DNA from: a phage
Sequence record: PZ445429.1
Reading direction: 5' to 3' (one strand)
Length of the DNA stretch: 64,000 bases
The notes below the pieces were generated by a model that did not search any database, had not been told where the DNA came from, and worked only from the letters and a program-made list of their open reading frames with translations. A program made the translations under genes and the position numbers. Within the stretch, counting starts at the first letter, position 1. Each line of letters begins with the position of its first letter. Positions 1,965 through 41,276 of this stretch are shown here, piece by piece.

Positions 1965-4524
1965 CTAAAATCCTTTTCACATTATCCAGATCTTTACATA
2001 CAGCAATAAACTTATCATCCTTGTACTTGCTGTGGTCTGGGTGCTCTTTATCCATTGCAACTAACTTCTTATACTCGAAATCTGCATCGAGTAATACACC
2101 CTTAACATAACGAGTATATTCATCATCATCAATACAAGCGATTGATGGGTGCTGTTTCTTCATCTTACCACAAGAGTAGTCGCGAGAACCACCTTTCTCA
2201 GAATCAGAATCAATACCGATTGGGCAGCCAGGGATACTAATACCACGATCCTTCTGGATGTTACGAATCAGAATCTCGTTATACTGATCGATCAGATCTT
2301 CACGTACAATGGCAACCACGGAGTCGTGAACCAACATGACGATCTTCATCTCTTTTCCTAGACCCAGTGACAGGATTTCTTCATCAGCATCAATAGCACC
2401 TAACAACAGGCTATCAGAAGATGCAGACTGAATGATTGCGTTAAATCCAGAACGGATTTCTTCACCCTGAACACCACGATCTTCGGAATGGATGTTGTGC
2501 AGACGACGCTTACGACCAAAGTGACTATAGATGAATCCAAAGTTCTTGATCTGATCGTGGCACTTATCAATCCAACGCTTAAGCTGAGGGAACTGACCGA
2601 AGTAAGTTTCGATATAGTCCTTAGCATCTGCAACGGTACATTCAACAAACGGTTCGCCTGTCTTAGCAGCCTGTTCCAGAAGAGCTTCGTTAACAGAATG
2701 AGCTACTTTCGCTGGGCCAGAACCATACAGAATACCGAAGGTAATTGCCTTAGCAGCCTGACGCAGAGCTGGGAACAGCTTTTTAACATCACGTGGTTCA
2801 CAGGTCAGTTTAAATACCATGTGTGCGATGTTTGAGTGGAAGTCAGGGTATTTATCCGGCTCATTCTTCATGTTGATAAATACTTGTTGCATGTTTCTGT
2901 CACCAGACAGTACAGCAGCGTAATAAACTTCCGCAGTTGTTAAGTCCCATGCGATTACACGATATCCAGGGGGAGCTACTACACAACCCTTGATAATAGA
3001 TTCATCACGTGGTAACTGTTGCAGGTTTAGCTTACCAGAAGAACTCAGACGACCAGAAGTAGTCATGTGTTCGTGGAAACCGGTACGAATGCAACCATCT
3101 GCATCGATGCTCAGAAGAATCTTCTCAACATAAGTAGAGATCAGCTTAGTCAGCTTACGAATCTCTAGCAGAGTTTTAGCAATCGGGTGCTGAGTAGCCA
3201 GTTCATTCAGAGCTTCTGCATTTGTAGAATCTGCACCTGTATCCGTCAGTTTACCAGTTGGAGTCAAACCAACATAATCAAACAGAAGAACACGGAGTTG
3301 CTTAACAGAGTTCGGGTTAAACGCTTCGTTCTGATTCTTCTCCAGCTGAACGACTTCTGGATAAGTATACAGCTTCTCACGAGCCATATTTAATCGATGT
3401 GTCAACTGATACTGAGCTTCTTTCAAGCGATCAACGGAAATCGGTACACCACGATCTTCAACACGTTGCAGGAATACACAACCAGGCATCAGAACTTCGT
3501 AGTATAGACTGCAAAGCTTTTCGTTCTTCTCAATTTTTGGTAAGAAGAAGTTATGCAGACGCAGAGTAGCATCGGTATCTTTTGCAGCATATGGCCACAT
3601 AATATCAAAAGGAATCAGATCATAGCTGAAATCCTCTTTTTTGATCTTATGTGCCTTGCAATAATCATCCTTGAACTTATCCAGTTCAAAGTCATAATCG
3701 CCCATGTCAGTATACTTCATAGCCAGAGATTTCAAGCCGTGAGTACCACGACGTTCATCAAGAACATAGTGTTGCAACATGGTATCATGAAGTCTACGCT
3801 CTTTATGTGCTTTCTCGAAGGAAAGTCCTAGATGATAGGAGTAAAAGTGCATATCGAACTTCAAGTTATGAAAAACGATCTGATGATTCTTGCTATCCAG
3901 AATTTTCTGGAGATAATGTACAGCTACTTCGGTAATGCTGTCAGAGTCAATATAGACACCCTGATACTCTTGGTGAGACATAGAAACACCAAGAAGATAA
4001 CCATCACGAGCATACAGAGCTGAGGTTTCGGAGTCGAATGCGATAGGTCCGATAACCATATTATACACCATCTTGATGTATTCTTCAGCTTCATCTGGAT
4101 CAGTAATAGGACGATAATCACCAGCTTTTGCAATCTTCTCACGACCATTAATAATGTCATGAATACTTTCAACAGTTGCATCGAAAACTGGTTTCATTTC
4201 AGGTTTAAAGTGTAGCTGAGCTGGACTAATACTTGCAATCCAGTTGGCATAGCCTCCATGCTCTACACGTTTACCAGTATAATCACCGATACCTTTCTTA
4301 CCTGCGAAATACAGGAAAGGTTCAGCACCAACTAGTACAACAAAATCGTAATCGTTCGGATCGAACGGGTTATCTGGAGTTCCGATTGTAATATGCTTTT
4401 TCAGCAAACGGCCAGATAACTTCTCGTTACACATATGGAATACATCAACTTCCTCACCATAAAGCTGGAAGTGTTTATCATAACGAGTGTTATTTAGAGC
4501 TTTATCAACTACTGCAATTTTCAA
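1957..4524 (-). CDS. DNA polymerase, family A, with 3'-5' exonuclease domain
   Basis: 855 aa; exo motif DSETS, pol motif B KAITFGILYG, motif C LVHDS. Confidence 0.9.
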   Translation of the reverse strand: MKIAVVDKALNNTRYDKHFQLYGEEVDVFHMCNEKLSGRLLKKHITIGTPDNPFDPNDYDFVVLVGAEPFLYFAGKKGIGDYTGKRVEHGGYANWIASISPAQLHFKPEMKPVFDATVESIHDIINGREKIAKAGDYRPITDPDEAEEYIKMVYNMVIGPIAFDSETSALYARDGYLLGVSMSHQEYQGVYIDSDSITEVAVHYLQKILDSKNHQIVFHNLKFDMHFYSYHLGLSFEKAHKERRLHDTMLQHYVLDERRGTHGLKSLAMKYTDMGDYDFELDKFKDDYCKAHKIKKEDFSYDLIPFDIMWPYAAKDTDATLRLHNFFLPKIEKNEKLCSLYYEVLMPGCVFLQRVEDRGVPISVDRLKEAQYQLTHRLNMAREKLYTYPEVVQLEKNQNEAFNPNSVKQLRVLLFDYVGLTPTGKLTDTGADSTNAEALNELATQHPIAKTLLEIRKLTKLISTYVEKILLSIDADGCIRTGFHEHMTTSGRLSSSGKLNLQQLPRDESIIKGCVVAPPGYRVIAWDLTTAEVYYAAVLSGDRNMQQVFINMKNEPDKYPDFHSNIAHMVFKLTCEPRDVKKLFPALRQAAKAITFGILYGSGPAKVAHSVNEALLEQAAKTGEPFVECTVADAKDYIETYFGQFPQLKRWIDKCHDQIKNFGFIYSHFGRKRRLHNIHSEDRGVQGEEIRSGFNAIIQSASSDSLLLGAIDADEEILSLGLGKEMKIVMLVHDSVVAIVREDLIDQYNEILIRNIQKDRGISIPGCPIGIDSDSEKGGSRDYSCGKMKKQHPSIACIDDDEYTRYVKGVLLDADFEYKKLVAMDKEHPDHSKYKDDKFIAVCKDLDNVKRILGA

Positions 4525-4586
4525 ATTTAGTCTCCTTTTGGTAAGTAAGTATAACTTCAGTGTTTCTTCTCTAACTTACCAATATA

Positions 4587-5477
4587 TTATACCAAATCTT
4601 TGAGCGATTCGGCAACTAAAATTTCAATACGTTGAGCCAACATATCGATCTCTTCTTTATTTAAGTCACCTGGGTCTTTGCCTTCTGGAAGAAGGAAGTT
4701 ACCAACTACAGGTGTTAAACGTGTTTTTGTACGAATTAGCTTCGCTAGTGCTTGGGCAGCTTTATTACCAGAGGCATCATTATCTAGCAAGATAACAACT
4801 ACTCTTACTCCAGCAATAATGTAAGGACTAAACTTATCCGCAATGTTATCAGATGTAAACTGATGTGTACCAAAGCAGCAAGAAGCATAATCTACACCAT
4901 TGTCTTCTAGATTTAACATATCAAAGATACCTTCAACTAGAACAAGAACTGGTGTATTATATCGTACAGGGAAAATCGGTGGTGAAACTTGTTTTGGTTT
5001 TACTAAGTATTTAGGAGGGGCAGAACTGTTTATAGAACGTCCCAGGAATAGGATATTGCGTCCAACAGCATCTGTTATTGGGAATACAATTCTGCCTTCC
5101 CAGTCTGCTTGATGTTGGAAAGCAAAATATTTCTTCAAGGTCTTAGAACTGATACCTCGGAAATCACCTTCGAAAAGGTAAGCAGATTCAGGAATTGCAA
5201 GATTCGTAGATCCATTCCTAATCTCTGAAATCTTTTTACGTACTTGTGACAATCTTGGGGACTGTCTGTACTGAGTCTCATTAAAATAATGGTAAATGCT
5301 CGGTATTCCTCTACCGAAGCCACAGCTCAAGCAATGCATAATACCTGATTCAGGATCAATACGCAAGCTTGGGTGTTTATCATCATGATCTGGATTGAGA
5401 CAACAGATGAGGATGTCCCCACCTGTGTCTTTGTATTCAATGCCTTTCAGATCAAGTAGTTCTGTTATTCTACTCAT
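4587..5477 (-). CDS. DNA primase (DnaG-like zinc-binding plus Toprim)
   Basis: 296 aa; CCLNPDHDD...HCLSCG zinc motif, Toprim acidic motifs EGIFD and LLDNDASG. Confidence 0.8.
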   Translation of the reverse strand: MSRITELLDLKGIEYKDTGGDILICCLNPDHDDKHPSLRIDPESGIMHCLSCGFGRGIPSIYHYFNETQYRQSPRLSQVRKKISEIRNGSTNLAIPESAYLFEGDFRGISSKTLKKYFAFQHQADWEGRIVFPITDAVGRNILFLGRSINSSAPPKYLVKPKQVSPPIFPVRYNTPVLVLVEGIFDMLNLEDNGVDYASCCFGTHQFTSDNIADKFSPYIIAGVRVVVILLDNDASGNKAAQALAKLIRTKTRLTPVVGNFLLPEGKDPGDLNKEEIDMLAQRIEILVAESLKDLV

Positions 5478-6997
5478 ATATCGCTGGCCTGTTCACCTGT
5501 TGAATTTTCAGCTTTGTCTTTCTTAGCACGTTTAGGTTGAGCTGGTTTATCCTTTTCAATAGGAATAACGAACTCAGCTTCCATTTGCGCAATATCTTCC
5601 ATTGCTAGGTTGGTAGTGTTATCCATTCGCAGAGTTTCCCAGTTCATCTTAGGCATAAACTTCACACTATCAGAGGAACGAGTCTTAACGAAGTCAAACA
5701 TAATAGCACCTTGACCATTATCAGCTTTTGCAGCATTAAGATTAGCAGCCATATCTGCGGAATCAAGAATCCCTTTAGACATACGCGTTCTACCATCTTG
5801 GTCAATCTGGTAAGGAGCAACACCAGCCACGTTATGTTTCTGGCAGATAGATTTGAAAGACGAACTAACGACCATCTGTTCTTTCCAGTCATACATGTCA
5901 ATGGTCTTTGAATCTGGAAGTCTTGTTTGGTTAATATAGTCTAGAAGAGCTACAGTAACCTTATCACCATATTTAGCAACTAGTTTATTTAATTCTACGT
6001 CAACCGTCGTAATAGACAGTTCAGGATCGTAAACGATGATCATAGGAGTGTGAAGCTCATAGCCTTCAAGGAGTTTACTTTCCATATCATAGAAGTCACT
6101 CATTTTAGCCATAGTGTATTGCTTAACGAAGTTATCGAAAAGCTCTTCACCCCCATTAAACATCCTAGCCCTAGTTCTGGCTAATCTCAACAGAGCAGCA
6201 CCTTCAAGAGTGTTATTACGCATTGCTAATGCAGATACTCCAGCTAACATAGCCAGATTACGTCTAAACACTTCGTGCTCTTTCATCTCAATTGAGAAGT
6301 ATGGAGCAATGTCTCCATTCAAATATTGCTGAACCTGTATGTTTGAACAGATAATGGATTTACCAGTACCACGCCAACCACCAAGCAGTAACGTTTCTGT
6401 GCGAGCTAAACCAATTTGAGCGTCGAACTCATTACAAATACCAAGAGCGATCAAGTTCAGTTTGGTATCTTCTTCTCTCTGGAAAATACGCATTGTGTCT
6501 GCGTTGAATACCTTTCCAGTATTCGTTACTTTCTCTTCTAATTTTAAGTGAAGGGAGGCAACTCGGTTGAGAATTTCTCCCTGATCCAGCATTGTTAAAT
6601 CTTGAAGCACGTCTGTTTCTAGAAGTTTCAGGAATAGATCCTGTGTATATTCGGCTTCTAGGACTTCAAGCGCCTGTTCCATGCTCACTTCTGGAATTTG
6701 AGTGTTAGCTAAGACGACAAGAGCTTGAGAAAGGCGGGCGTTCCTATTGGCCTCAAGCATCAGTGCGTCAATGGACGGCATTGCGTTATATTTCTTATAA
6801 TAATTCTGGACGGCTTGGTAAATTGAGGAGAAAGCGTCATTAAAATGATCTTTATGCAGTTTTGAGAATGTTTCCAATGCTATTTGCTTCTGTTCAGAAG
6901 CGAGAAGCATCTTCAACACTACAGCTTGCACGTTAAACAAGGTCATTCTCCTTTGCACGCTTTCGTGCCTTCTAAATGCAAAAAGGGGAAGGAGCAT
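5474..6997 (-). CDS. replicative DNA helicase (DnaB-like)
   Basis: 507 aa; Walker A GGWRGTGKS; 4-nt overlap with primase gene. Confidence 0.75.
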   Translation of the reverse strand: MLLPLFAFRRHESVQRRMTLFNVQAVVLKMLLASEQKQIALETFSKLHKDHFNDAFSSIYQAVQNYYKKYNAMPSIDALMLEANRNARLSQALVVLANTQIPEVSMEQALEVLEAEYTQDLFLKLLETDVLQDLTMLDQGEILNRVASLHLKLEEKVTNTGKVFNADTMRIFQREEDTKLNLIALGICNEFDAQIGLARTETLLLGGWRGTGKSIICSNIQVQQYLNGDIAPYFSIEMKEHEVFRRNLAMLAGVSALAMRNNTLEGAALLRLARTRARMFNGGEELFDNFVKQYTMAKMSDFYDMESKLLEGYELHTPMIIVYDPELSITTVDVELNKLVAKYGDKVTVALLDYINQTRLPDSKTIDMYDWKEQMVVSSSFKSICQKHNVAGVAPYQIDQDGRTRMSKGILDSADMAANLNAAKADNGQGAIMFDFVKTRSSDSVKFMPKMNWETLRMDNTTNLAMEDIAQMEAEFVIPIEKDKPAQPKRAKKDKAENSTGEQASDI

Positions 6998-7010
6998 AGC
7001 CCCCTCCCCT
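6977..7010 (-). terminator. rho-independent terminator (minus strand)
   Basis: Minus strand GGGGAGG...CCTTCCC plus TTTTT after gene ending 7029. Confidence 0.6.
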
Positions 7011-7028
7011 TAGGTTTAATTTACCAGA

Positions 7029-7796
7029 TTATTCAGCAGCCGCAGCTTTTGCATCCAGTTTAGCACGCTTAGCAGCACCATCATAGTCCTTAGCAACCAG
7101 ACCACGACGAGACAGCATAGATTTAACACCGCGCTCAGACTTACCAGTTTTCTCAGCAACTTCTGCAACAGTCATAGAAGCCAGATCCAGACCTTCTAAC
7201 AGATCTTCACGAGTCTTAGCACTTGATGTTTCCTGTACCGGCATAGCAGCGATACGACCTTCACGAAGCAGGCTCAGAGCTTTACCACGGATCTGCTTAA
7301 TATTACGACCGAAGTGAGCAGCGATAGCTTCAATAGTAGCACCAGCAACAACCTGATTAACGAAATCAGTTTCTTCGTCAGGAGTGAAGGAACGAACAGC
7401 AGCAGCTTTTTCAGTTGGCTTAACAGAAGCGGTCATTTCCAGACTCAGGATCTTACCCTGTACCTGCTTAGCACCGAACTGACCACCAGCTACAGCAGCA
7501 GCGATTTCAGCGTAAGTATACTGACCAGCATGAGCGTTCAGGAAATCAACTAGTTCAGCTTCCTGCTCAGGAGTCCACGGGGATTTCTGTACTTCGTTAG
7601 CTTTCTGTACTTCGAAACCTTCTTTACGCAGCTTAGAGCCAACAGAGCGAGCGGTAACGTCTTTGCCAGTCTCGGTAGCCAGTTCAGCAGCGATAGCAGC
7701 TACTTGTTCTTGAGAGATTACAGCAACACCCAGAGCAGTGGCTTTTGCTTTCAGAGACTCGGTTACACCTTCTACGTTCCAGTTCAGTTTAGACAT
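7029..7796 (-). CDS. hypothetical Ala/Glu-rich protein with internal ~45-aa repeats (possible DNA-binding)
   Basis: 255-aa ORF, GC-richer codon usage; repeats TPEQEAELVDFL... and TPDEETDFVNQV...; minus-strand terminator downstream. Confidence 0.5.
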   Translation of the reverse strand: MSKLNWNVEGVTESLKAKATALGVAVISQEQVAAIAAELATETGKDVTARSVGSKLRKEGFEVQKANEVQKSPWTPEQEAELVDFLNAHAGQYTYAEIAAAVAGGQFGAKQVQGKILSLEMTASVKPTEKAAAVRSFTPDEETDFVNQVVAGATIEAIAAHFGRNIKQIRGKALSLLREGRIAAMPVQETSSAKTREDLLEGLDLASMTVAEVAEKTGKSERGVKSMLSRRGLVAKDYDGAAKRAKLDAKAAAAE

Positions 7797-8571
7797 TATT
7801 ATTTTTCTCCAATAGTTCTTTAATCGACAGGATTTCTATCCCATTCGTTTCGGCTTTCTTATAAGATGAGGAAGAACGTTTTGATTCATCCTCACAGATT
7901 AGGTATTTGACGTCTTTGGTAACGGACTTCTTGACCGTATATCCTAGACTTTCTAAATAGTTTGTTGCATCCGTTCGATTTGCAAAGTCTTGCAAAGATC
8001 CGGTAATACAGACCGTGATTCCATTTGGCTGGGCAACTAAATCATCTGTAATGATGATATCAGCTTTAGCACCTCGAATACCAGTTGAGAATTTCCACGG
8101 TAGTTCAATAACATCCTTGCCTTGTGGGGAATTTAGCCAGGTTTTGTAATTTTCTCCAGCCTTGCCGTCAGCCTTCACATCGTGGAAGCTAGTGCAATTT
8201 TGGGACAGTTTCTTTGCTGCAACCTCTCCAATAAGAGGAATTCCTAAAGAACCGAGAACTGAACCAAAGTCAATGTCTCCGCGAACCTTAGTATTTAACT
8301 CGCTAATCAACTTAGCGGCAACCTTGCTACCCACAGCTCCTACCAAATCTTCTTCGGTCAGGTAAAACAGTTCTGAGATCTTAGTCAGCTCCAGCTTCTC
8401 AATAGTTTTCGGGCCAAAGCCCTTTAACTTCATTTTTGTGCAGAAGTTCTCGATTAACTTACTTGATTGCGCTGGACAGTTGGACTTATTCCTACAGAAT
8501 AATTGCCCGTTGACAAGATCTAGCTTAGAACCACAAGAGGGACATTGTGTTGGAATTTCGATTTTCATCAA
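7789..8571 (-). CDS. NAD-dependent DNA ligase, C-terminal part (Zn finger, HhH, BRCT-like)
   Basis: 260 aa; CPSCGSKL...C..C zinc motif, HhH GFGPKTIEKL. Confidence 0.8.
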   Translation of the reverse strand: MMKIEIPTQCPSCGSKLDLVNGQLFCRNKSNCPAQSSKLIENFCTKMKLKGFGPKTIEKLELTKISELFYLTEEDLVGAVGSKVAAKLISELNTKVRGDIDFGSVLGSLGIPLIGEVAAKKLSQNCTSFHDVKADGKAGENYKTWLNSPQGKDVIELPWKFSTGIRGAKADIIITDDLVAQPNGITVCITGSLQDFANRTDATNYLESLGYTVKKSVTKDVKYLICEDESKRSSSSYKKAETNGIEILSIKELLEKNNNV

Positions 8572-8598
8572 ATTTCTTCCTTATCAATTTATATAAAT

Positions 8599-8627
8599 AT
8601 TATAGCAAGTATTTAAGCATTTAGCAA
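8599..8627 (-). promoter_or_regulatory. N25-type promoter in the gap between the two ligase ORFs
   Basis: Minus strand: TTGCTA, 17 bp, TATAAT then TATAAATTGATAAGGAAG before ATG of 7789-8571; a second TTGACA-17-TATACT lies further upstream. Confidence 0.6.
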
Positions 8628-8770
8628 CTACAATTTTAACTAACTTTGCTTACCCTCGCCATAACTTTCTATCCCTCAACTGAATGATAATAGTATATAC
8701 CTAAGCGGCGAAAATGTCAATAACCACTTTATAATTCCGACATGGTAAACGGGTAGCAAAGGGTTACGAA

Positions 8771-9745
8771 TTAGTCGTATACTCGCTCTACTATACAAGG
8801 GATTACACCACCAGCACGAATCACTCGAATCTGGCAACCGATCTCTAAATCGAGAGCGTTAATATAATCAACGTTATTAAGAGTTGCTTTAACGATTGTG
8901 GCATCATCAATAATCACCGGTTCGAAATAACCAACTGGAGTTACTTTACCAGAAGCCCCTACTTGCCATTCAACTTTAACAAGTGTGGTAATTTCGCCTT
9001 CTTCATCCTCTTTAATAGCAAATGCACCACGAGGAAATTTATTAGTCCAACCTTCACGGAAGAATTTGTTGTTATCATTAATACGAACAACTTTACCATC
9101 TGTCGGAATCCATTTAAAGAAGGAACGAACATTAATAACTGTCAAGAAGTTCTCATTCTCTAGCCAAAGCATATCTTTTAAATAGGCTTCTGTAATACCG
9201 ACTGTTTCCGCTGAACACTGGATACCATATGCAACGAAGATTAAACCACCTTCACCAATACGTTGCATGAAATCATCACTATCTTTTAGGTTAATAGCAC
9301 CAGAAGCATAGTTACGTTTGTTCTCTACTTCTTTAGTAATGAGAACTTCACCAGTGATTTGAGTTGGTACTTTTTGGGAAATAGTTTTGGGGATGTTCAG
9401 CATTTTAACATTATGCGTTACATCATTCCCTAGAATACCGTTACCACGAGTTAACGCTTGAACAAACTCACCATTAATATATAATAGAGAAATCGCACAA
9501 CCATCTAACTTATCAGTTTCAACCTGACCAAGTGGGTTGAATGGAGCTTTATCACCACGATCGTAATAGACTTTCTGCAAAGAATACATACGATACAAAT
9601 GAGGGATATCACCTTTCGGTCCGATTTCTTCCTCTAGTGGGAATCTTTTAATCAGACGATCATATTCTTCATCGGAAATAAGACTCATTCCCTGGTAGTA
9701 CGCTTCTTGACAACGTTTAATAAAGTCTTTTACATTATTCATCAT
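8771..9745 (-). CDS. NAD-dependent DNA ligase, N-terminal part (adenylation plus OB fold)
   Basis: 324 aa; adenylation motif TDKLDGCAISLLY (KxDG); OB-like C-terminus. Confidence 0.85.
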   Translation of the reverse strand: MMNNVKDFIKRCQEAYYQGMSLISDEEYDRLIKRFPLEEEIGPKGDIPHLYRMYSLQKVYYDRGDKAPFNPLGQVETDKLDGCAISLLYINGEFVQALTRGNGILGNDVTHNVKMLNIPKTISQKVPTQITGEVLITKEVENKRNYASGAINLKDSDDFMQRIGEGGLIFVAYGIQCSAETVGITEAYLKDMLWLENENFLTVINVRSFFKWIPTDGKVVRINDNNKFFREGWTNKFPRGAFAIKEDEEGEITTLVKVEWQVGASGKVTPVGYFEPVIIDDATIVKATLNNVDYINALDLEIGCQIRVIRAGGVIPCIVERVYD

Positions 9746-34848: not shown

Positions 34849-35331
34849 ATGAAAAGGAAAGAATACCCTACTAAAGAAATACTTGAAAAATATTTTGTAG
34901 CTGATCCTGATAATGGGATACTATATAGGAAAACAAAGAAAGGTTTGAAAGAGTGTTGTGCCAATAATAAGAAATCACATCCAGATGTGGGATTTCAGGG
35001 CGACACCTATCAACTGCATGTCTTATTATTTATTATGTACTATGGATATAGGCCTGAAGAAGTAGATCATAAGGATACTAATCCTAGAAATAATAGGAAA
35101 AATAATCTAAGGGACGCCTCTAGATCGCAAAATAATGCGAATAGAAACCAACAATGCAATAATACTTCTGGGTACAAAGGAGTAAGTTGGGAAGGCTCTT
35201 CCTGGAGATACCAAGTAAGACATGAAGGAAAAAATTACAGTAAAAGAGGGTTTAAAACTGCGGAAGAGGCTTTCGAGGCCTCTAAGATATTAAGAGAATC
35301 CTTACATAAAGAATTTACTAACTTTGGTTAG
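34849..35331 (+). CDS. HNH homing endonuclease
   Basis: 160 aa; HNH core VDHKDTNPRNNRKNNLRDASRSQNNANR; paralog of 24914-25432; ATG 6 nt after promoter -10. Confidence 0.7.
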   Translation: MKRKEYPTKEILEKYFVADPDNGILYRKTKKGLKECCANNKKSHPDVGFQGDTYQLHVLLFIMYYGYRPEEVDHKDTNPRNNRKNNLRDASRSQNNANRNQQCNNTSGYKGVSWEGSSWRYQVRHEGKNYSKRGFKTAEEAFEASKILRESLHKEFTNFG

Positions 35332-35959
35332 TAATAGTGGGGTGCCGAAACCACTTATGTAACAACACTGCCGTCCTAGTATAATAGGTATTATTAGGGC
35401 TTCACCGCCTGAAGATGTGGGTTCGAGTCCCACGGTCGGAAAGAGTTGGATAACTGGTGCTTCTAATGGCGAAGCAATCGCAGGCAGTTGCGCACTGCCA
35501 AAACCACGCGGTAGTTGGTTCCAGGCTAACCAACCACTCTTGAAAAGTATATACTATGGTTTTGCTTGTTCAAGAAGCTTCGCATCGAAAATCGGAGGTG
35601 CGATTTTATCCGACCGCGTGGAGGACGTCTCTCCGTTAAGTGACGAAAAGTGGGACGATTCAGGTAGAGCTGGATATGGAACACCTATACATATGCGGAG
35701 TGCGCACAAAGCATATTGCGGTGGTACTAAACGAAATTAGGAGTCATGACCTGCACAAGTTTAGTATGTCATAACCGATGTACATTCAGTACAAAAACCA
35801 CTGAAGCTAAGATAGATAGTCACCTTGACTTAAACTGGAAGATATTGTCTGACGGAAGGGCTGCAGAGCTTAATCTGAGGGGGCTGACCCTACCTACCGT
35901 CGGGTATCTTTAAGAGCTTTTATAAGAGTTCTTAAAAATACCTAACAAAAGGAATCAAT
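35332..35959 (+). ncRNA. ORF-poor GC-rich structured region downstream of an HNH gene
   Basis: ~630 nt; perfect T-arm-like hairpin GTGGG-TTCGAGT-CCCAC at 35417-35433 without matching acceptor; only a doubtful GTG-start ORF. Confidence 0.3.
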
Positions 35960-36477: not shown

Positions 36478-36552
36478 CGGGGTGTAGTCTAAAGGAGAGG
36501 CAGGAGTCTTCTAAATTCCTTTATGCAGGTTCGAATCCTGTCACCTCGGCCA
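36478..36552 (+). tRNA. tRNA-Arg (anticodon TCT)
   Basis: Hand-folded cloverleaf: acceptor CGGGGTG/CACCTCG, T-loop TTCGAAT, anticodon loop CTTCTAA, CCA encoded. Confidence 0.7.
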
Positions 36553-36585
36553 ATTTTATTAACTGTAATTAAACAAAGGAAATAT

Positions 36586-37530
36586 ATGTTTACTAAAAAC
36601 ACTAAAGAACTGACTTCTGAGCAAAAAGTAATTCGCACTATCAAACGTTGGGGTGTTGGTGCTGTATTTGGTCTTGGCGCTATTATTCTGGCTCTCAATT
36701 CCTACACAGTTGTTCAGGATGGTACTGTTAAGACTCAAACCTTCCTGGGTAAAGTTAGCCCGAACCCTGTACTGCCCGGCTTCCATATTGTTAACCCATT
36801 TGCTTCTTTTGATACTTTTAGTACGAAAGATATTTCTATGAAACTGGATAAACTTCAGGTTCCTAGCCAGGATAAGTTTAAGTCTACTGTTGACATTACC
36901 GTTATGTTGCAGTTTGATGGTGCTAAAGCTCCTATGAACCGTGTTAACGCAGGTACTCAGGATCAGGCTCTGAACAAGTACGTTGAAGAGAAGATGCTAT
37001 CTACGATTCGTGAGTTTGGTAAGTCTGTACCAAAAGCACAAGATCTGTTCGACGCTAAGATTCAGGCTCAACTGCAAACTGCTATTCAGCAAGAAGTAGA
37101 AGAGTATGCGCGTCCTTATGGTTACACCGTTAAGCAAGTATTCCTTCAGGATATTACTCTGCCACCGGTAATCATGGAACAGGTACAGAACACCAAAGTT
37201 CGTGAAGAACAAGTTAACGCTGCAAAAGCTGAACTGGCTCGTGTTGAACAAGAAGCACAGCAGAAAGTTAAGCAAGCTGAGGCAGATCGTTCCGCTCGTG
37301 AAAACATGGCAGTAGCTAACGAACGTGACGCAGATGCTAAACTGTACGCAGCTAAGAAAGAAGCTGAAGCTAACGCCGCTCTGCAACGTACCATTACTCC
37401 TGAAATGATTCGTTGGAAGCAGCTGGAAGTTGAAATGCTTCGTGCTGAAAAATACCAAGGTGGTGTACCGCAGACTGTTGTTGGTACTGGCTATGATGGT
37501 CAAATGATCATGGATATGCGTAACAAGTAA
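36586..37530 (+). CDS. SPFH/band-7 domain membrane protein
   Basis: ATG 36586; N-terminal TM WGVGAVFGLGAIILAL, SPFH core, Ala/Glu/Gln-rich coiled-coil tail; two terminator hairpins follow. Confidence 0.75.
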   Translation: MFTKNTKELTSEQKVIRTIKRWGVGAVFGLGAIILALNSYTVVQDGTVKTQTFLGKVSPNPVLPGFHIVNPFASFDTFSTKDISMKLDKLQVPSQDKFKSTVDITVMLQFDGAKAPMNRVNAGTQDQALNKYVEEKMLSTIREFGKSVPKAQDLFDAKIQAQLQTAIQQEVEEYARPYGYTVKQVFLQDITLPPVIMEQVQNTKVREEQVNAAKAELARVEQEAQQKVKQAEADRSARENMAVANERDADAKLYAAKKEAEANAALQRTITPEMIRWKQLEVEMLRAEKYQGGVPQTVVGTGYDGQMIMDMRNK

Positions 37531-37555
37531 TAGTTACACGTAATCTTCGAACCAA

Positions 37556-37590
37556 GCCCGCGTTTCCTCCGAGAGCGCGGGCTTTTCTGT
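37556..37590 (+). terminator. rho-independent terminator after SPFH gene
   Basis: GCCCGCG...CGCGGGC plus TTTTCTGT. Confidence 0.75.
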
Positions 37591-37600
37591 ATTTAAGACA

Positions 37601-37640
37601 AAAGAAAAGCCCCTTACCTTTCGGCAGGGGCTTTGTTTTT
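37601..37640. terminator. bidirectional terminator at a convergent gene junction
   Basis: AGCCCCT...AGGGGCT hairpin with T-runs on both strands. Confidence 0.65.
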
Positions 37641-37847
37641 GGTTTAGAACCATATACTCTTGTTACAGCAACCACCCATACGGGAGACCAATCTTGACTG
37701 AAAATCTACTCTAGGGGGCAGGATAAGAGTAGGCTTAAAGGCAAACGGATTGAACACCGGTATTTGCGTAAACATTGCTGGAGAGCAACAACGTGCTACA
37801 GGCATTGGGCAGCATGACGTAGGTTTTCTACAACACATATAAACTCC

Positions 37848-38267
37848 TTAGGATTTCTCCCCATTTTGCGCTTTTGCAACTTGACTTTGACAGAAACTGT
37901 TAAACTTACCCATAAGTGATACAAGTTGCTTTCCATCCTCTGTTTTAGCGAAGTCTTCGAAAAGGGCTAGAACAGCCTGTCCTTCCGCAGATACCTGCGG
38001 TTGTTGGGTTTGTTGAGTCATCTGCTGCTGTGGTTGCATTTGCTGAGGCATCATCTGCTGAGGCATCATTTGTTGCATTTGCATTTGCGGCTGCATTTGC
38101 ATCTGGTTGATGTTTCCCTGCGGGTTTTGCAGGGAATTTTGCATTTGCTGTGCTTCTGCCAATCTCTGTTGCAACTGTTGTAAGTAGGGGTTATCAAGCC
38201 CCGGAACGGGCTGCTGGGAGCCCATACTTTGATTAAATCCGTTGTTCACAAAACCATATTTACTCAT
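37848..38267 (-). CDS. Gln/Met-rich low-complexity protein
   Basis: 139 aa, QMQMQPQMQMQQMMPQQ repeats; opposite strand to flanking genes; terminator downstream. Confidence 0.5.
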   Translation of the reverse strand: MSKYGFVNNGFNQSMGSQQPVPGLDNPYLQQLQQRLAEAQQMQNSLQNPQGNINQMQMQPQMQMQQMMPQQMMPQQMQPQQQMTQQTQQPQVSAEGQAVLALFEDFAKTEDGKQLVSLMGKFNSFCQSQVAKAQNGEKS

Positions 38268-38289
38268 GATGGGCTCCTCCCCTTAATTA

Positions 38290-39285
38290 TTAAGCCGGCA
38301 GTTTAGCCTGCAGACCAGCCAGAGTCTGAGTGATAGCACCAAGACTTACAGCGATTTGGTTGATTACCTGACCGTTAGCACCACTACCCTGAGCGATAGC
38401 TTCACGCAGACGGCATTCGTTCAGTTCGTCCTGAATACGCGCAGTAGTTACACCAGCGATTGCAGACTGAAGTTCACAGCAGCATTCAGCGATCTGACGT
38501 TCCAGAGCGTTCTGGTTAGCACAAGCCTGAGCAGCTACAGCAGCGAACTGGTTGTTAGTCTGGATAGACTGAGCAAACATGATCTGAGCGGTATCGAACT
38601 TGTCTTGAGCACGTGCGATCTGGTTAGCAGCGAAAGCTTGATCCATCTGGCGAGAAAGATCGAACTGACCCTGAATAACGTTACGAGTTTCCTGACAGAT
38701 CTGGTTGGACAGGTTAGCACCAGTACCGTAGATCGTAGTCAGAAGCTGTTGAGTACTAGCAGCTTGAGCAGCTCCTACACCATTTACTGCACTCAGAACA
38801 GCACCAGTACCCTGATTAGCTTCAGTACGAGTAGTGTTGATTGCAGCTAGAATACTTGCAGTATCCTGGTTAGAAAGGATCGCGTCCACAGCAGTTCCCT
38901 CAGCGGCAACACCAGCACCGCGGCCAAAACCACCGAAACCACCGAATCCACCTGTTAATAGAGCACCGATTAAGATAGCTCCGAATAGACCCATACCTTC
39001 ACCACCGAAAGCACCGTTAGCAACTGCTGGGTAACCACCCATTAGGCCAGGGAAGCCACTAGTGAATACGTTTACTGGTTCTTGCATTTTATGTTTTCCA
39101 TGTTTATGACAATGTTCATCATCGTCATCTTCTTCATCATCTTCATCGTGTTCACGATGTTCTTTTTCGTAGGCTTTGACCTTCTCCCACTTTTTCTTGT
39201 CTGATTCTTCGTGACGACGCAGTTCTGCTGCTACGCCAGCGACCGTATCAGGACTCTTAGCTACTTCTTCTGTCATTTTTGACAC
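38290..39285 (-). CDS. glycine-zipper membrane protein with acidic/His-rich N-terminus and Gln/Ala-rich tail
   Basis: 331 aa; EHDEDDEEDDDDEHCHKHGKHK, GAILIGALLTGGFGGFGGFG, Q/A-rich C-terminus. Confidence 0.55.
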   Translation of the reverse strand: MSKMTEEVAKSPDTVAGVAAELRRHEESDKKKWEKVKAYEKEHREHDEDDEEDDDDEHCHKHGKHKMQEPVNVFTSGFPGLMGGYPAVANGAFGGEGMGLFGAILIGALLTGGFGGFGGFGRGAGVAAEGTAVDAILSNQDTASILAAINTTRTEANQGTGAVLSAVNGVGAAQAASTQQLLTTIYGTGANLSNQICQETRNVIQGQFDLSRQMDQAFAANQIARAQDKFDTAQIMFAQSIQTNNQFAAVAAQACANQNALERQIAECCCELQSAIAGVTTARIQDELNECRLREAIAQGSGANGQVINQIAVSLGAITQTLAGLQAKLPA

Positions 39286-39482
39286 CTCCTAGTATATAGA
39301 AAATGTGTGTCTCTTTGATCACTCATCCATAACATATACTTTACACTACCCCAGCGAAAATGTCAAGGGGTCTTTAAAAATTGCCCCCGGATTTTTAGTG
39401 GGGTAACAATTTCTGGACCTCACCACTCACCTGCTACCCTTAAGTGCCCTGCGATTTTCCACTAAAAAGTTTAAAAATTCGA

Positions 39483-39511
39483 TTGCTTGAATGCTAAATT
39501 CTCTATATAAT
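39483..39511 (+). promoter_or_regulatory. N25-type early promoter (nadR-like operon)
   Basis: TTGCTT, 17 bp, TATAAT then TATAAATTTGAGAGAGG. Confidence 0.7.
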
Positions 39512-39541
39512 ATATTTATAAATTTGAGAGAGGAATCAAAT

Positions 39542-40597
39542 ATGATTAAGACTGGTCTAGTAATTGGTAAGTTCGCACCATTAACGCGTGGTCATATTAA
39601 CCTAATAAACACAGCAGCAACTATGTGTGAACGAGTTATTGTTGTAGTTAGTCATGATAATCGTTGGCTGGATAAGCAGAACACACGTGATCAGGAAGTA
39701 TTACAGTTAAAGAATCGACTTCGTTGGTTAGAACAAACTTACGCGGATATTGAGCACATTTCGGTAGAGTACATTATTGAAGATGATATTCCTGAATATC
39801 CGAATGGTTGGCCGGAATATGCTAGAATCCTTAATGAAAATTACGGACATTTGCCTGAGATCACCATTTTCTCTAGCGAACTAGACTATGATGCAGAATA
39901 TAAGAAATATCTGCCGAAGTTTGGTCATTATATTGTAGATTCTGATCGGACTCGTGTTCCAATCTCAGCTACAATGATTCGTAATGATCTTATGAAGTAT
40001 TGGGAGTTTCTTCCTAGCGTAGTTCGTAAAGATTACGTGCGTAAGGTTGTAATCATTGGGACTGAAAGCTCGGGAAAGACTACTTTAACAAAATACCTTG
40101 CGAAGCTATACAACACTTCGTGGGTAGAAGAATATGGCCGAACGTATTGTGAAGTTGATCTAGTTGGTAACGAAAATCTACTTACCAGTGAAGATTATAG
40201 TAAAATTGCGTTCAGACACAAAGAGCTAGAGTTTGAAGCAGAACGTACTGCAAATAAGATCATGTTTGTGGATACAAATGCTTTTATTACTGAGTTCTAC
40301 CACAGACTTTATGAACATCGTAAGAATCCTGTGGTTACAGCAATTGCAAAAGAAGAACATTACGATTTAGTAATTGTTCTAGCGCCTACTGTTAAGTGGG
40401 TAGATGATGGTTTACGTATTAACTCCGATCGTTCAATTACTTCTGAACTGTTCGAGCAGATGAAGAAAGAATTTCCAAATCAGTTCCCTGAAGGGCGTAC
40501 TGTTTACATCGACTCCCCGGACTACAAAGTTCGTATGGACGAAGCAGTAAACGCAGTAGACTGGCTGATTCATCACTTTAACGTTGGAGAGTTTTAA
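39542..40597 (+). CDS. nadR: NadR-like bifunctional NMN adenylyltransferase / ribosylnicotinamide kinase (no HTH domain)
   Basis: ATG 39542; GKFAPLTRGH motif, C-terminal Walker A GTESSGKTT. Confidence 0.8.
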   Translation: MIKTGLVIGKFAPLTRGHINLINTAATMCERVIVVVSHDNRWLDKQNTRDQEVLQLKNRLRWLEQTYADIEHISVEYIIEDDIPEYPNGWPEYARILNENYGHLPEITIFSSELDYDAEYKKYLPKFGHYIVDSDRTRVPISATMIRNDLMKYWEFLPSVVRKDYVRKVVIIGTESSGKTTLTKYLAKLYNTSWVEEYGRTYCEVDLVGNENLLTSEDYSKIAFRHKELEFEAERTANKIMFVDTNAFITEFYHRLYEHRKNPVVTAIAKEEHYDLVIVLAPTVKWVDDGLRINSDRSITSELFEQMKKEFPNQFPEGRTVYIDSPDYKVRMDEAVNAVDWLIHHFNVGEF

Positions 40598-40598
40598 T

Positions 40599-41276
40599 AT
40601 GACTAACTATCTTGTAAATGACTTTAAAAACTGGAAACCTTTGGAATATCTGTGGCTGTTTATAGCAGTCGCCTTTATTAGTTTAGCAAACTATAATGGT
40701 ACAGCTCTAGATTGGGCTACTGCAATAACCAATGTGGTTTGTGTTATTCTGGTTGCAAAAGGACGTGTTTCCAACTATATTTGGGGCTTAGTGGGTGTTC
40801 TTACATACGGTATTACAGCTTTAAACGCAGATCTTTATGGTAATGCTGCACTAAACCTGCTATACTACGTTCCTATGCAGTTTTATGGAATGTACTTATG
40901 GCATAAAAATAAGCCAAGTAATCTGCCAGATGTTCCAACTAAGGTTCTGAATAAAGCCCAAGCTCTGCTGACTCTAGGGATTCTAGCAGTAGCTACTTTA
41001 GGTTACGGCAGCTTCCTTGCTACTACCGCTGATCCATTCCCAATGCTTGACGCATTTACTGCGGTTGGTAGTGTGATTGCTATGTGGCTTATGGTCAAAC
41101 AATATGCTGAACAATGGCTGATTTGGATTGTTATTAACATTGGTACTGTGTACATTTGGCTTGTAACTGCTCAATCTACAGGTGCATCTTACGCAATCCT
41201 AGCAATGTGGCTAGTATTCTTAGGCAACTCTATTCTTGGAGCTTATAAAGGATACTTTGTACGCGTTAACAAATAA
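40599..41276 (+). CDS. pnuC: PnuC-like nicotinamide riboside transporter
   Basis: ATG 40599; polytopic membrane protein with SNYIWGL motif; adjacent to nadR-like gene. Confidence 0.7.
   Translation: MTNYLVNDFKNWKPLEYLWLFIAVAFISLANYNGTALDWATAITNVVCVILVAKGRVSNYIWGLVGVLTYGITALNADLYGNAALNLLYYVPMQFYGMYLWHKNKPSNLPDVPTKVLNKAQALLTLGILAVATLGYGSFLATTADPFPMLDAFTAVGSVIAMWLMVKQYAEQWLIWIVINIGTVYIWLVTAQSTGASYAILAMWLVFLGNSILGAYKGYFVRVNK

What the first reader, a model, noticed from the sequence alone, without database searches (positions are those of the whole stretch)
36586..39285. Opposite-strand low-complexity protein pair (Gly-zipper + Gln/Met-rich) next to a phage SPFH gene
Two minus-strand ORFs (37848-38267, 38290-39285) are embedded in a plus-strand block and bracketed by a bidirectional terminator (37601-37640). 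The 331-aa protein has an acidic/His-rich N-terminus, a glycine-zipper hydrophobic core (GAILIGALLTGGFGGFGGFG) and a long Gln/Ala-rich tail; the 139-aa protein is almost pure Q/M/P repeats. Both use GC-richer, E. coli-like codons, as does the adjacent SPFH gene (36586-37530). I recognise no characterised family for the pair. Inference: a membrane-targeting module, possibly acting on host membrane proteostasis or superinfection exclusion.
Basis: partly seen in the sequence, partly recalled or inferred. Interest (0 to 1): 0.75.

Follow-up and report, generated by a model that had tools for sequence, protein, structure and literature searches.

The report
Orphan three-gene phage accessory operon
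This is a real but uncharacterised three-gene operon of T5-like phages (T5.077-079) that is dispensable in the laboratory. It encodes a coiled-coil protein with an invariant triple-cysteine motif, whose codon usage suggests high expression, plus two small partners. It moves as a unit between unrelated phages and belongs to a large, unnamed phage protein superfamily.

Summary
The ORFs are real, but the unit has three genes, not two: a 328-aa protein (ATG at 39276), a 139-aa protein, and a 64-aa peptide with four CC doublets. All three sit between a sigma-70 promoter and a bidirectional terminator. They are the orthologues of T5.077/078/079, which are "hypothetical", lie inside the st0 deletion, and scored "Not Fit" in a genome-wide T5 knock-down screen.

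The same trio occurs in Pseudomonas phages KPP23/RSP and in a lambdoid phage (between Q and the holin gene, on the opposite strand). It is therefore a mobile accessory cassette. It is not tied to the SPFH gene, which is found in 720 phage records against 221 for the cassette.

The large protein has a variable acidic/His tail, a borderline-hydrophobic Gly-zipper and a roughly 200-aa helical domain. That domain carries the motif "AL..Q(L/I)AECCCE(L/I)K", shared by 74 of 107 remote relatives in phage contigs, including crAss-like ones.

Pfam, NCBIfam, PADLOC, PDB sequences, Foldseek and hhalign against spanins gave no significant match.

My best guess, at low confidence, is an abundant, membrane-associated coiled-coil scaffold with an adaptor and a Cys-rich partner, acting on the envelope (exclusion or membrane conditioning). 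The function remains unproven.

The parts
39338..39366 (-). Sigma-70 promoter (TTGACA-17-TAAAGT), counterpart of T5 promoter P12
   Evidence: Consensus scan, 10 of 12 matches. T5 records annotate promoter P12 at the homologous place. Nucleotide identity is 99-100 % across 9 T5-likes at 39290-39380.
39277..39337 (-). Invariant 5' leader with Shine-Dalgarno AGGAGG (39285-39290)
   Evidence: Sequence read directly. Identity across T5-likes is 1.00.
38290..39276 (-). Gene 1, 328 aa (T5.077 orthologue; phrog_8119). Acidic/His N-tail (1-65), Gly-zipper segment (about 90-120), helical C-domain (126-328) with invariant C252 and C265-C267, and a near-invariant C-terminal NGQVINQIAVSLGAITQTLAGLQ.
   Evidence: CAI 0.558, rank 4 of 79.
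37848..38267 (-). Gene 2, 139 aa (T5.078 orthologue; phrog_7894). Conserved helix 27-46, variable disordered Q/M/P linker 47-93, conserved helical hairpin 94-135 (..LFEDFAKTEDGKQLVSLMGKFNSFCQS..).
37644..37838 (-). Gene 3, 64-aa basic peptide (T5.079 orthologue) with four CC doublets (C2-3, 9-10, 17-18, 57-58). Its DNA is unusually conserved.
   Evidence: dS is 0.07-0.16 against about 1.0 in gene 2, and identity is 0.95-0.98 at 37670-37790.
37606..37634 (.). Bidirectional intrinsic terminator hairpin (GAAA loop) with T-runs on both strands; counterpart of T5 ter1
   Evidence: Sequence and fold. T5 annotates an 'efficient bidirectional rho-independent transcription terminator' here. An analogous bidirectional hairpin sits right after gene 3 in the lambdoid locus L005.
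37554..37584 (+). Second hairpin: terminator of the SPFH gene, carrying the T5 nick consensus 5'-NPu|pGCGCN-3' (GA|GCGCG, nick predicted between 37574 and 37575 on the + strand). Not part of the cassette.
   Evidence: Terminator scan. T5 annotates a 'major DNA single-chain interruption' 26 nt beyond ter1 and 44 nt before the SPFH stop codon. The position was mapped by distance and by the consensus read.
36586..37530 (+). Neighbouring SPFH/Band-7 gene (T5.080 orthologue). Convergent, in its own transcription unit, and not part of the cassette.
   Evidence: PF01145 2.9e-19. phrog_200. CAI 0.554. 720 phage records carry it. 'Not Fit' in T5.

Best explanation
**What is shown.** Window 37644-39366 (minus strand) is a self-contained, horizontally mobile, non-essential three-gene accessory operon of T5-like phages, orthologous to T5.077-079. 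It runs from a strong host-type promoter (P12) to a bidirectional terminator. The genes, the transcription signals, the dispensability, the mobility of the trio as a unit, and the existence of the superfamily are all shown.

**What is inferred.**
- Gene 1 is made in large amounts. It oligomerises through its roughly 200-aa amphipathic helical/coiled-coil domain, and the C-x12-CCC motif clusters cysteines at the oligomer interface as a disulfide or metal cross-link.
- Gene 1 sits at the cytoplasmic membrane through its Gly-zipper segment. An acidic residue before the segment and an Arg after it suggest that the helical domain faces the cytoplasm.
- Gene 2 is an adaptor. Two small helical binding modules are joined by a flexible Q/P/M linker that tethers the scaffold to a second partner.
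- Gene 3, a basic peptide with CC doublets, caps or cross-links the Cys motif.
- The assembly conditions the envelope of the infected cell (or of the lysogen, in the lambdoid case). The most likely roles are exclusion of competing phages or stabilisation of the membrane until lysis.

Abundance, oligomerisation, membrane location, the roles of the partners and the biological role are inferences, not demonstrated facts.
For: **Operon anatomy.** Promoter, three Shine-Dalgarno sites and terminator are present, and T5 carries matching annotations of P12 and ter1.

**Coding.** dN/dS is 0.10-0.17 for genes 1 and 2. The gene-3 ORF is kept, with an MC(G)CC start and CC doublets, in four phage backbones.

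**Dispensable.** The genes lie inside the st0 deletion and are 'Not Fit' in the CRISPRi-ART T5 screen (PMC11879866 supplements).

**Mobile as a unit.**
- T5-likes carry it.
- A lambdoid carries it between Q and the holin gene on the opposite strand, with its own bidirectional terminator.
- Pseudomonas phages KPP23/RSP carry it at the head of the arm transcribed divergently from the terminase/structural genes, which I read as the early arm.
- It is absent from 100,044 representative bacterial genomes.

**Abundance.** CAI is 0.558, rank 4 of 79. Of the three ORFs ranked higher, two are DNA-binding proteins (D5-like and phrog_1725) and the third is phrog_1491, labelled 'tail fiber protein'.

**Helical domain.** AF2 predicts all-helix, including one helix spanning residues 175-297. 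Hydrophobic periodicity is 3.6-3.67 for 175-235 and 3.5/7 for 235-297.

**Hallmark motif.** C252 and C265-267 are invariant. CCC occurs in a constant context in 74 of 107 remote hits.

**Hydrophobic segment.** KD19 is 1.72. Flanking charges were read.

**Adaptor architecture of gene 2.** AF2 gives helix 27-46, disorder 47-93, and a hairpin at 94-135 with pLDDT 86-88. The linker is the most variable DNA in the locus, at 0.55-0.6 identity.

**Charge complementarity.** The peptide is +7; the gene-1 C-domain is -6.
Against: - There is no direct evidence for any function.
- No homology to any exclusion, defence or membrane-stress protein was found.
- The hydrophobic segment is borderline for a transmembrane helix. 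It is weaker (1.3-1.57) in divergent members, and in three of them it is not even the most hydrophobic stretch.
- The AF2 model of gene 1 has low confidence (pLDDT 50). The oligomeric state could not be modelled.
- Genes 2 and 3 have low CAI, so the stoichiometry with gene 1 is unclear.
- The partners of remote superfamily members are unrelated to genes 2 and 3.
- Absence from representative bacterial genomes argues against a common lysogenic-conversion role.
Confidence: 0.35

Rival explanations
1. One reading: the cassette and the adjacent SPFH gene form one functional module that acts on host membrane proteostasis.
For: The two are adjacent and share a terminator region. They have the 4th and 5th highest CAI in the window. 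Both are dispensable. SPFH is a membrane-scaffold family.
Against: They are convergent, separate transcription units. The cassette occurs without SPFH in KPP23/RSP and the lambdoid. In the divergent T5-like locus L004 the convergent neighbours are two other proteins with no Pfam match. SPFH is in 720 phage records, including T4-like phages, against 221 for the cassette.
Confidence: 0.12
2. A cytoplasmic self-assembling structure rather than a membrane complex, that is, a filament, lattice or condensate. Gene 1 would be a coiled-coil rod with a Gly/Phe-rich head. The CC-doublet peptide would be a cross-linker and the Q/P-rich protein a matrix or linker. By composition only, this resembles keratin plus keratin-associated proteins.
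For: Gene 1 has a long helix and GLFG/GGFGG repeats. The hydrophobic stretch is weak or short in divergent members, e.g. ..MEALVLAALVGGNGFG.. in P0026. CCxP/CCP motifs occur in the peptide. Gene 2 has a disordered Q-rich linker. The CAI suggests high abundance. The top Foldseek hit was vimentin, but it is non-significant (E = 2.3).
Against: The resemblance is purely compositional, with no significant structural hit. The cytoplasm is reducing, so disulfide cross-linking would need metal or post-lysis oxidation. Many superfamily members have clearly hydrophobic segments, e.g. WWWIWIILIWFCW in the crAss cr4_1 protein.
Confidence: 0.15
3. A metal-handling trio, in which Cys clusters plus a His/acidic tail bind Zn, Cu, Ni or Fe.
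For: The C-x12-CCC motif is invariant. The peptide carries metallothionein-like CC/CCP doublets. His-rich runs precede the zipper in T5-type proteins and in some remote members, e.g. HHYHHHHHEHY and HKHKHQHKH.
Against: The Met-rich character of gene 2 is not conserved; the linker becomes P/Q-rich. His clusters were detected in only 5 of 107 remote hits by my filter, and the tail is the most variable part of the protein. No metal-binding family matched.
Confidence: 0.1
4. A lysis-related membrane protein: either a spanin- or fusion-like protein, or a regulator of holin timing.
For: The architecture is a hydrophobic segment followed by a long coiled coil with Cys. Relatives lie next to holin or endolysin genes in the lambdoid L005, crAss cr4_1/cr52_1 and L009. 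The segment begins GLFGAI, like a viral fusion peptide; this comparison is from my own knowledge, and the HA2 hit was only E = 1.7.
Against: T5 has its own holin and endolysin plus PseT.2/3-like genes, and the T5-like phage OSYSP is reported to encode Rz-like spanins (PMC11664485). The lambdoid has its own Rz. hhalign against both gave a probability of 1 % or less. No partner has a lipobox. In T5 the transcription unit is separate and sits far from the lysis genes. In T5 the genes lie in the tRNA region, which the phiR2-01 paper places in the early gene cluster, and in KPP23 they head the arm divergent from the structural genes. Other contexts are not lysis-proximal.
Confidence: 0.1
5. A virion or structural protein (fiber or spike), as the labels on crAss-like relatives suggest.
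For: Yutin-set annotations read 'outer capsid protein/viral fiber' and 'spike protein/glycoprotein'. The CAI is high. In eiAU and STP-SP5, relatives follow what appear to be tail genes.
Against: In T5 the unit has its own sigma-70 promoter in the tRNA region of the early gene cluster, while structural proteins are encoded mainly in the late cluster; only 16 particle-associated T5 proteins have been identified by mass spectrometry. In KPP23 the trio lies on the arm divergent from the structural genes. KPP23's record marks 'virion protein' genes and the trio is not among them. The genes are dispensable. No significant similarity to any fiber or spike was found.
Confidence: 0.05

Closest known systems
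T5.077 / T5.078 / T5.079 (T5p075-077) of phage T5; PHROG families 8119 and 7894
   Same: Direct orthologues at about 77-84 % amino-acid identity. The order, the promoter P12, the terminator ter1, the nearby nick site and the SPFH neighbour are all the same.
   Different: Nothing in kind. The upstream neighbours differ: NadR-like/PnuC here, against the Toprim-like anti-retron T5.076 plus an HNH gene in T5. All of these genes are annotated 'hypothetical / unknown function'.
Phage morons and accessory cassettes (e.g. lambda bor/lom, HK97 gp15; named from my own knowledge)
   Same: An autonomous promoter-genes-terminator unit on the strand opposite to its neighbours. It is dispensable and is found in unrelated phage backbones at typical accessory sites, such as between Q and the lysis genes in a lambdoid.
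   Different: There is no sequence relationship to any characterised moron product. It is mostly carried by virulent phages and is absent from representative bacterial genomes. GC3 is not distinct from the host phage.
i-spanins (lambda Rz, T4 PseT.3)
   Same: Overall architecture: a hydrophobic segment followed by a long helical domain with conserved cysteines, with some relatives next to lysis genes.
   Different: No homology was found (hhalign probability 1 % or less). There is no lipoprotein partner. The hydrophobic segment is internal, coming after a tail of 65-90 aa. The carrier phages have canonical spanin-type genes of their own.
Membrane scaffolds built from long helices (PspA/Vipp1 ESCRT-III-like; SPFH)
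   Same: A putatively abundant, helical, probably oligomeric protein that may be associated with the membrane, encoded next to an SPFH gene.
   Different: There is no Pfam PspA_IM30 or Band_7 match in gene 1. The Vipp1 Foldseek hits are non-significant (E = 4-10).
Glycine-zipper proteins (SlyB; Pfam Gly-zipper families)
   Same: A G-x3-G-rich hydrophobic stretch. SlyB is the best PDB sequence hit.
   Different: That hit has E = 0.4 and is not significant. No Pfam Gly-zipper family matched. There is no lipobox.
crAss-like phage proteins labelled 'spike protein/glycoprotein' or 'outer capsid protein/viral fiber' (phrog_16490)
   Same: They belong to the same superfamily by profile search and share the Gly-rich hydrophobic segment plus the ..CCC.. 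helical domain.
   Different: The relationship is distant (E of about 1e-7 to phrog_8119). Their partner genes are different, they sit in late or lysis-region contexts, and their labels are unverified.

Membership tests
PHROG 8119 / 7894 (T5.077 / T5.078 families) | Full-length profile match | tested here: met
   E = 2.5e-196 (residues 4-331 against 1-332 of 332) and E = 2.4e-65. Both families are 'unknown function'.
AECCCE (C-x12-CCC) phage superfamily (unnamed; defined here) | Helical domain with CCC in the context ..AL..Q(L/I)AECCCE(L/I)K.. at about 75 % of the protein length | tested here: met
   C252 and C265-267 are invariant in 16 family members. 74 of 107 representative remote hits carry CCC in the same context.
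Moron / autonomous accessory cassette | Own promoter and own terminator, on the strand opposite to its neighbours | tested here: met
   T5 annotations P12 and ter1. The lambdoid copy has its own bidirectional terminator, but no consensus promoter was found there.
Moron / autonomous accessory cassette | Dispensable, and present in unrelated phage genomes | tested here: met
   The st0 deletion and 'Not Fit' scores. The cassette occurs in T5-like, lambdoid and KPP23/RSP backbones.
Moron / autonomous accessory cassette | Base composition distinct from the carrier genome | tested here: not met
   GC3 is 0.36-0.48 against 0.28-0.39 in neighbours. The higher total GC of the big gene comes from its Gly/Ala content.
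i-spanin / o-spanin pair | Sequence or profile similarity to Rz or PseT.3 | tested here: not met
   hhalign probability 0.1 % and 1 %. No PF03245 match.
i-spanin / o-spanin pair | Partner outer-membrane lipoprotein with a lipobox | tested here: not met
   Genes 2 and 3 have no signal peptide or lipobox. Gene 3 starts MCC directly.
SPFH / Band 7 (neighbouring gene only) | Pfam PF01145 above the gathering score | tested here: met
   70.3 bits against a cut-off of 23.6.
SPFH-linked operon (functional unit with the cassette) | Co-transcription, or co-occurrence across genomes | tested here: not met
   The genes are convergent and separated by terminators. The cassette occurs without SPFH. Record counts are 720 against 221.
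cAMP-dependent protein kinase catalytic subunit (the name some records give the 139-aa protein) | Protein kinase domain | tested here: not met
   No Pkinase hit at E of 1 or below. The protein is a helix, a disordered linker and a helical hairpin. The name is a propagated artefact.
Known anti-phage defence systems (PADLOC) | Match to any PADLOC-DB model | tested here: not met
   No families at E of 0.1 or below for any of the three proteins or for SPFH.
Virion structural protein (fiber / spike) | Similarity to a solved fiber or spike, or presence in virions | tested here: inconclusive
   No significant PDB sequence or fold match. The trio is not labelled 'virion protein' in KPP23. T5 has 16 particle-associated proteins identified by mass spectrometry, and its structural proteins are encoded mainly in the late cluster. 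No proteome of a phage carrying the cassette was examined directly.
Integral membrane protein (single-pass) | Hydrophobic segment of about 19 or more residues with KD above 1.6 | tested here: inconclusive
   KD19 is 1.72 in T5-types but 1.31-1.57 in divergent members. No dedicated transmembrane predictor was available.

The most novel reading that the evidence does not exclude
The cassette is the best-placed experimental entry point (T5, E. coli) into a large, unrecognised superfamily of phage proteins. In this reading, its members build a cysteine- or metal-cross-linked coiled-coil scaffold on or under the host membrane. That would be a phage-encoded cytoskeleton- or cortex-like structure with a dedicated adaptor and a CC-doublet cross-linker peptide. 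It would be used by phages as different as T5, Pseudomonas siphophages and crAss-like phages to remodel or protect the infected cell's envelope.
Probability: 0.15. Interest if true: 0.8.

Novelty: categorically new. Interest (0 to 1): 0.5.

Why it matters
T5 is a classic model phage, yet this operon, whose first gene has codon usage typical of abundant proteins, has been 'hypothetical' for twenty years. The present work shows four things:
- It is a conserved three-gene unit.
- It jumps between unrelated phages of Enterobacteria and Pseudomonas.
- Its main protein belongs to a widespread, unnamed superfamily marked by an invariant AECCCE motif, which reaches into crAss-like gut phages.
- Existing database names for these proteins ('cAMP-dependent protein kinase', 'spike glycoprotein', 'viral fiber') are unsupported.

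If the products form a cross-linked scaffold at the membrane, that would be a new type of phage-host interface. Because T5 and E. coli are tractable and the genes are dispensable, the question can be tested directly.

If the products turn out to be just another exclusion protein set, the finding is modest.

Tried and rejected
1. **Metal trio (His + Met + Cys).** Largely rejected. The Met-rich linker and the His-rich tail are not conserved across backbones. Only the Cys features persist.
2. **Replacement spanin.** Rejected. The carrier phages have canonical spanin-type genes of their own, there is no profile similarity, and there is no lipoprotein partner.
3. **Functional unit with SPFH.** Rejected on distribution and transcription.
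4. **Consistent lysis-cassette proximity across the superfamily.** Seen in 4 contexts, absent in at least 5. Treated as weak.
5. **Conserved partners in remote members.** The downstream genes in eiAU, crAss cr4_1, L009 and L008 are unrelated to genes 2 and 3.
6. **LemA-like identity of the genes that replace SPFH in L004.** Not supported; Pfam found nothing.
7. **Fold search with the AF2 model of gene 1.** No hit with E below 1. The model is too poor (pLDDT 50) for any inference.
8. **Prophage survey in 100,044 representative genomes.** Nothing found. The IMG/VR scan returned only T5-likes.
9. **Literature.** No paper names T5.077/078 or the motif. The T5 virion proteome paper (PMC3911642) is not held. 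The phiR2-01 proteome is not applicable, because no Yersinia phage carries the big protein.
10. **Rfam search for an RNA element in the hyper-conserved 3' part of gene 3.** Only sub-threshold, terminator-like hits.
11. **** folded a mistyped coordinate range and is irrelevant.

Full report
**Identity of the window.** The window is a T5-like phage (Demerecviridae). The 3.1-kb region is 99 % identical to Salmonella phage EH3 and Escherichia phage GreteKellenberger, and 456 phage records match it. It lies in the tRNA-rich region, which carries 28 tRNA genes.

**Observation check**

- The two minus-strand ORFs exist as described, but the transcription unit contains three genes.
- Reading the minus strand gives, in order:
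  - a TTGACA-17-TAAAGT promoter at 39366-39338;
  - a leader with AGGAGG;
  - ATG at 39276, opening a 328-aa ORF (the GTG at 39285 lies inside the Shine-Dalgarno site);
  - GGAGG and a 139-aa ORF;
  - GGAG and a 64-aa ORF (37838-37644);
  - a GAAA-loop hairpin at 37634-37606 flanked by T-runs on both strands.
- Public annotations call the same three CDSs (Seabear and SpoonbillGilly). The dedicated T5 deposits name them T5p075-077, or T5.077-.079. Those deposits also annotate promoter P12, an 'efficient bidirectional rho-independent terminator', and a 'major DNA single-chain interruption' between that terminator and the SPFH gene T5.080.
- Genes 1 and 2 are under purifying selection, with dN/dS 0.13-0.17 and 0.10-0.16 across about 20 T5-like genomes.
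- The composition claims hold for the big protein.
- The 139-aa protein is low-complexity only in residues 47-93 (Q47/M21/P13 %).
- Total GC is higher than in the neighbours, but GC3 is not. Gene 2 scores 0.262 and gene 3 scores 0.210.
- Of the three ORFs ranked above gene 1, two are a D5-like protein and another DNA-binding protein; the third is phrog_1491, labelled 'tail fiber protein'. This suggests that gene 1 is tuned for abundant expression.

**What the proteins look like**

*Gene 1.*
- The family alignment (16 sequences down to 42 % identity) shows four regions:
  - a variable acidic/His N-tail;
  - a conserved 'EPVNVF' motif followed by a Gly-zipper hydrophobic segment;
  - a well-conserved C-terminal half with invariant C252 and C265-C267;
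  - a near-invariant tail, NGQVINQIAVSLGAITQTLAALQ.
- The AF2 model has low confidence (pLDDT 50) but is all-helical from residue 129 onwards, including one helix spanning 175-297.
- Hydrophobic moments peak at 3.6-3.67 residues for 175-235 and at 3.5/7 for 235-297. This fits an amphipathic or coiled-coil oligomer.
- The hydrophobic segment reaches KD19 = 1.72 in T5-types but only 1.31-1.57 in divergent members. Membrane insertion is therefore plausible but not secure.

*Gene 2.*
- AF2 predicts a helix at 27-46, a disordered stretch at 47-93, and a confident helical hairpin at 94-135 with pLDDT 86-88.
- The alignment shows that the flanks are conserved (..PYLQQLQQRL....LFEEFAKTEDGKQLVS.MGKFNSFCQS..), while the linker varies in length and composition.
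- The linker is also the most variable DNA of the locus.
- This is the architecture of a tether or adaptor.

*Gene 3.* This is a basic (+7) peptide with CC doublets at positions 2-3, 9-10, 17-18 and 57-58 and a Pro/Phe-rich centre.

**Distribution and mobility**

- The big protein has only 27 clusters at 90 % identity, on contigs of 2.9-123 kb, the longest of them about 110 kb.
- Look-ups of the divergent members showed the same trio, in the same order, in three other settings:
  - a divergent T5-like phage (L004);
  - a lambdoid phage, between the Q antiterminator and the holin-lysozyme-Rz genes, on the opposite strand, with its own bidirectional terminator immediately after gene 3 (L005/L006);
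  - a high-GC phage of about 62 kb (L007) that matches the Pseudomonas aeruginosa phages KPP23/RSP. There, ORF074/073/072 (320/143/64 aa) head the arm transcribed divergently from the terminase/structural genes and are not among the genes labelled 'virion protein'.
- No copy exists in 100,044 representative bacterial and archaeal genomes. IMG/VR returned only T5-likes.
- The SPFH gene has a much wider and independent distribution: 720 records including T4-like phages, against 221. In L004 it is replaced by other genes.
- The cassette is therefore an autonomous, mobile accessory unit. It is not a partner of SPFH.

**Experimental knowledge**

- In T5 the block lies within the st0 deletion.
- In the genome-wide CRISPRi-ART screen, T5.077.078.079 and .080 are all 'Not Fit' and classed as unknown. 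The divergent neighbour T5.076 is listed as an anti-retron gene (PMC11879866 supplements).
- No paper mentions these genes or the motif.

**A larger superfamily**

- An exhaustive profile search of 1.84 billion representatives found only 5 close clusters, plus about 100 weaker hits with E from 1e-14 to 1e-3.
- These weaker hits are not low-complexity noise. 74 of 107 carry CCC in a constant context, with consensus ..L(Q/E)A(C)KN..AL.(R)Q(L/I)AECCCE(L/I)KE.I.. at about 75 % of the protein length. 58 have a Gly-zipper-like segment.
- They map to PHROGs 8119, 9288 and 16490, all of unknown function.
- They lie on phage contigs, including crAss-like ones.
- In annotated genomes they occur in Edwardsiella phage eiAU, a Seuratvirus, Aeromonas phiWae15, a Bacteroides phage and many crAss-like genomes. 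In the crAss-like genomes they are labelled 'spike protein/glycoprotein' or 'outer capsid protein/viral fiber'.
- Their neighbours are unrelated to genes 2 and 3.
- Only some of the contexts are close to lysis genes.

**Comparison with known families.** All comparisons were negative:

| Resource | Result |
|---|---|
| Pfam | Nothing above threshold |
| NCBIfam | Nothing above threshold |
| PADLOC | No families |
| PDB sequences | Best hit SlyB, E = 0.4 |
| Foldseek against PDB | All E > 2; generic long helices such as vimentin and Vipp1 |
| hhalign against the lambdoid's Rz and T5's PseT.3-like protein | Probability 1 % or less |

The T5-like phage OSYSP is reported to encode Rz-like spanins, and T5 itself carries PseT.2/3-like genes. 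The name 'cAMP-dependent protein kinase catalytic subunit' attached to gene 2 in some records is an artefact.

**Interpretation**

- What is shown is an autonomous, dispensable, mobile three-gene operon, together with the superfamily.
- What is inferred is the following:
  - gene 1 forms an abundant, oligomeric coiled-coil scaffold, probably at the cytoplasmic membrane;
  - its Cys motif, together with the CC-doublet peptide, cross-links the scaffold;
  - gene 2 connects the scaffold to something else;
  - the scaffold serves an envelope-related accessory role, such as exclusion of competitors or membrane stabilisation.
- I put this at about 0.35.
- The rivals are a cytoplasmic self-assembling structure, metal handling, lysis regulation, a unit with SPFH, and a virion protein. 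They are listed with their evidence in the rival section.

**Unexplained**

- Within T5-likes, gene 3 has a dS of 0.07-0.16, against about 1.0 in gene 2 and about 0.7 in SPFH.
- Nucleotide identity is 0.95-0.98 at 37670-37790 and 0.99-1.00 at the promoter and leader, 39290-39380.
- The RNA of gene 3 plus the terminator folds with z = -3.3.
- No Rfam family matches, and there is no power to detect covariation at this level of identity.
- Three explanations remain open: an overlapping RNA element, recombination 'linker' islands, or a very strong constraint on the peptide.

Noticed in passing
window 37554-37584 (+), nick predicted between 37574 and 37575: The SPFH terminator hairpin contains GA|GCGCG, matching the T5 nick consensus 5'-NPu pGCGCN-3'. 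It sits at the position where T5 annotates a 'major DNA single-chain interruption': 26 nt beyond ter1 and 44 nt before the SPFH stop codon. This phage therefore probably carries a T5-type site-specific nick here, on the + strand.
   Followed up: partly
window 37670-37790 and 39290-39380 (minus-strand operon): There are two islands of 95-100 % nucleotide identity across T5-likes, inside gene 3 and over the promoter and leader. They flank much more diverged coding sequence. The dS of gene 3 is 5-10 times lower than that of its neighbours. This could reflect an RNA element or recombination linkers, but it is unresolved.
   Followed up: partly
window 39491-41276 (+): A NadR-like nicotinamide-nucleotide adenylyltransferase and a PnuC-like NMN transporter (phrog_3462, phrog_1880) sit immediately upstream of, and divergent from, the cassette. 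In T5 the same position is occupied by the Toprim-like anti-retron gene T5.076 and an HNH endonuclease. The site is therefore a variable accessory hot spot.
   Followed up: partly
window 35369-35442 (+): ARAGORN calls a tRNA with anticodon TCA here ('tRNA-SeC'), which would read UGA. It lies next to an HNH-like ORF (34849-35331). It may be a suppressor-like or degenerate phage tRNA.
   Followed up: no
window 36523-36586 / tRNA-Arg 36478-36552: The longest SPFH ORF (from ATG 36523) overlaps the tRNA-Arg gene. The start at 36586 used by other annotations (314 aa) is the plausible one. Relatives such as Seabear carry an extra 66-aa ORF between the tRNA and SPFH that this window lacks.
   Followed up: no
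GenBank/UniRef records for the 139-aa protein (e.g. Seabear CPT_Seabear_118, STWB21, ESCO40): The name 'cAMP-dependent protein kinase catalytic subunit' has propagated for this Q-rich protein. There is no kinase domain, so the name is a low-complexity artefact.
   Followed up: yes
Remote superfamily members P0032, P0033, P0076, P0080, P0086 and others: Several distant relatives have HKHKH-type histidine runs and an '(E)PVNVF' motif just before the Gly-zipper, and lack the CCC domain. The N-terminal module and the CCC helical module therefore seem to be separable.
   Followed up: partly
L011 (crAss cr4_1) 6126-8781 and L034 (cr52_1) 4132-6748: In Suoliviridae crAss-like phages the CCC-family gene sits in a conserved block after the holin or LysB-like genes. 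It is preceded by a gene labelled 'RNA polymerase sigma factor/ubiquitin-like' and followed by genes of about 130-145 aa and 188 aa. These genomes use TAG recoding, since in-frame stops appear under table 11.
   Followed up: no
L004 7573-9206 (-): In a divergent T5-like phage the position convergent to the cassette holds two predicted membrane proteins (190 aa and 353 aa) with no Pfam, NCBIfam or PADLOC match, in place of SPFH.
   Followed up: partly
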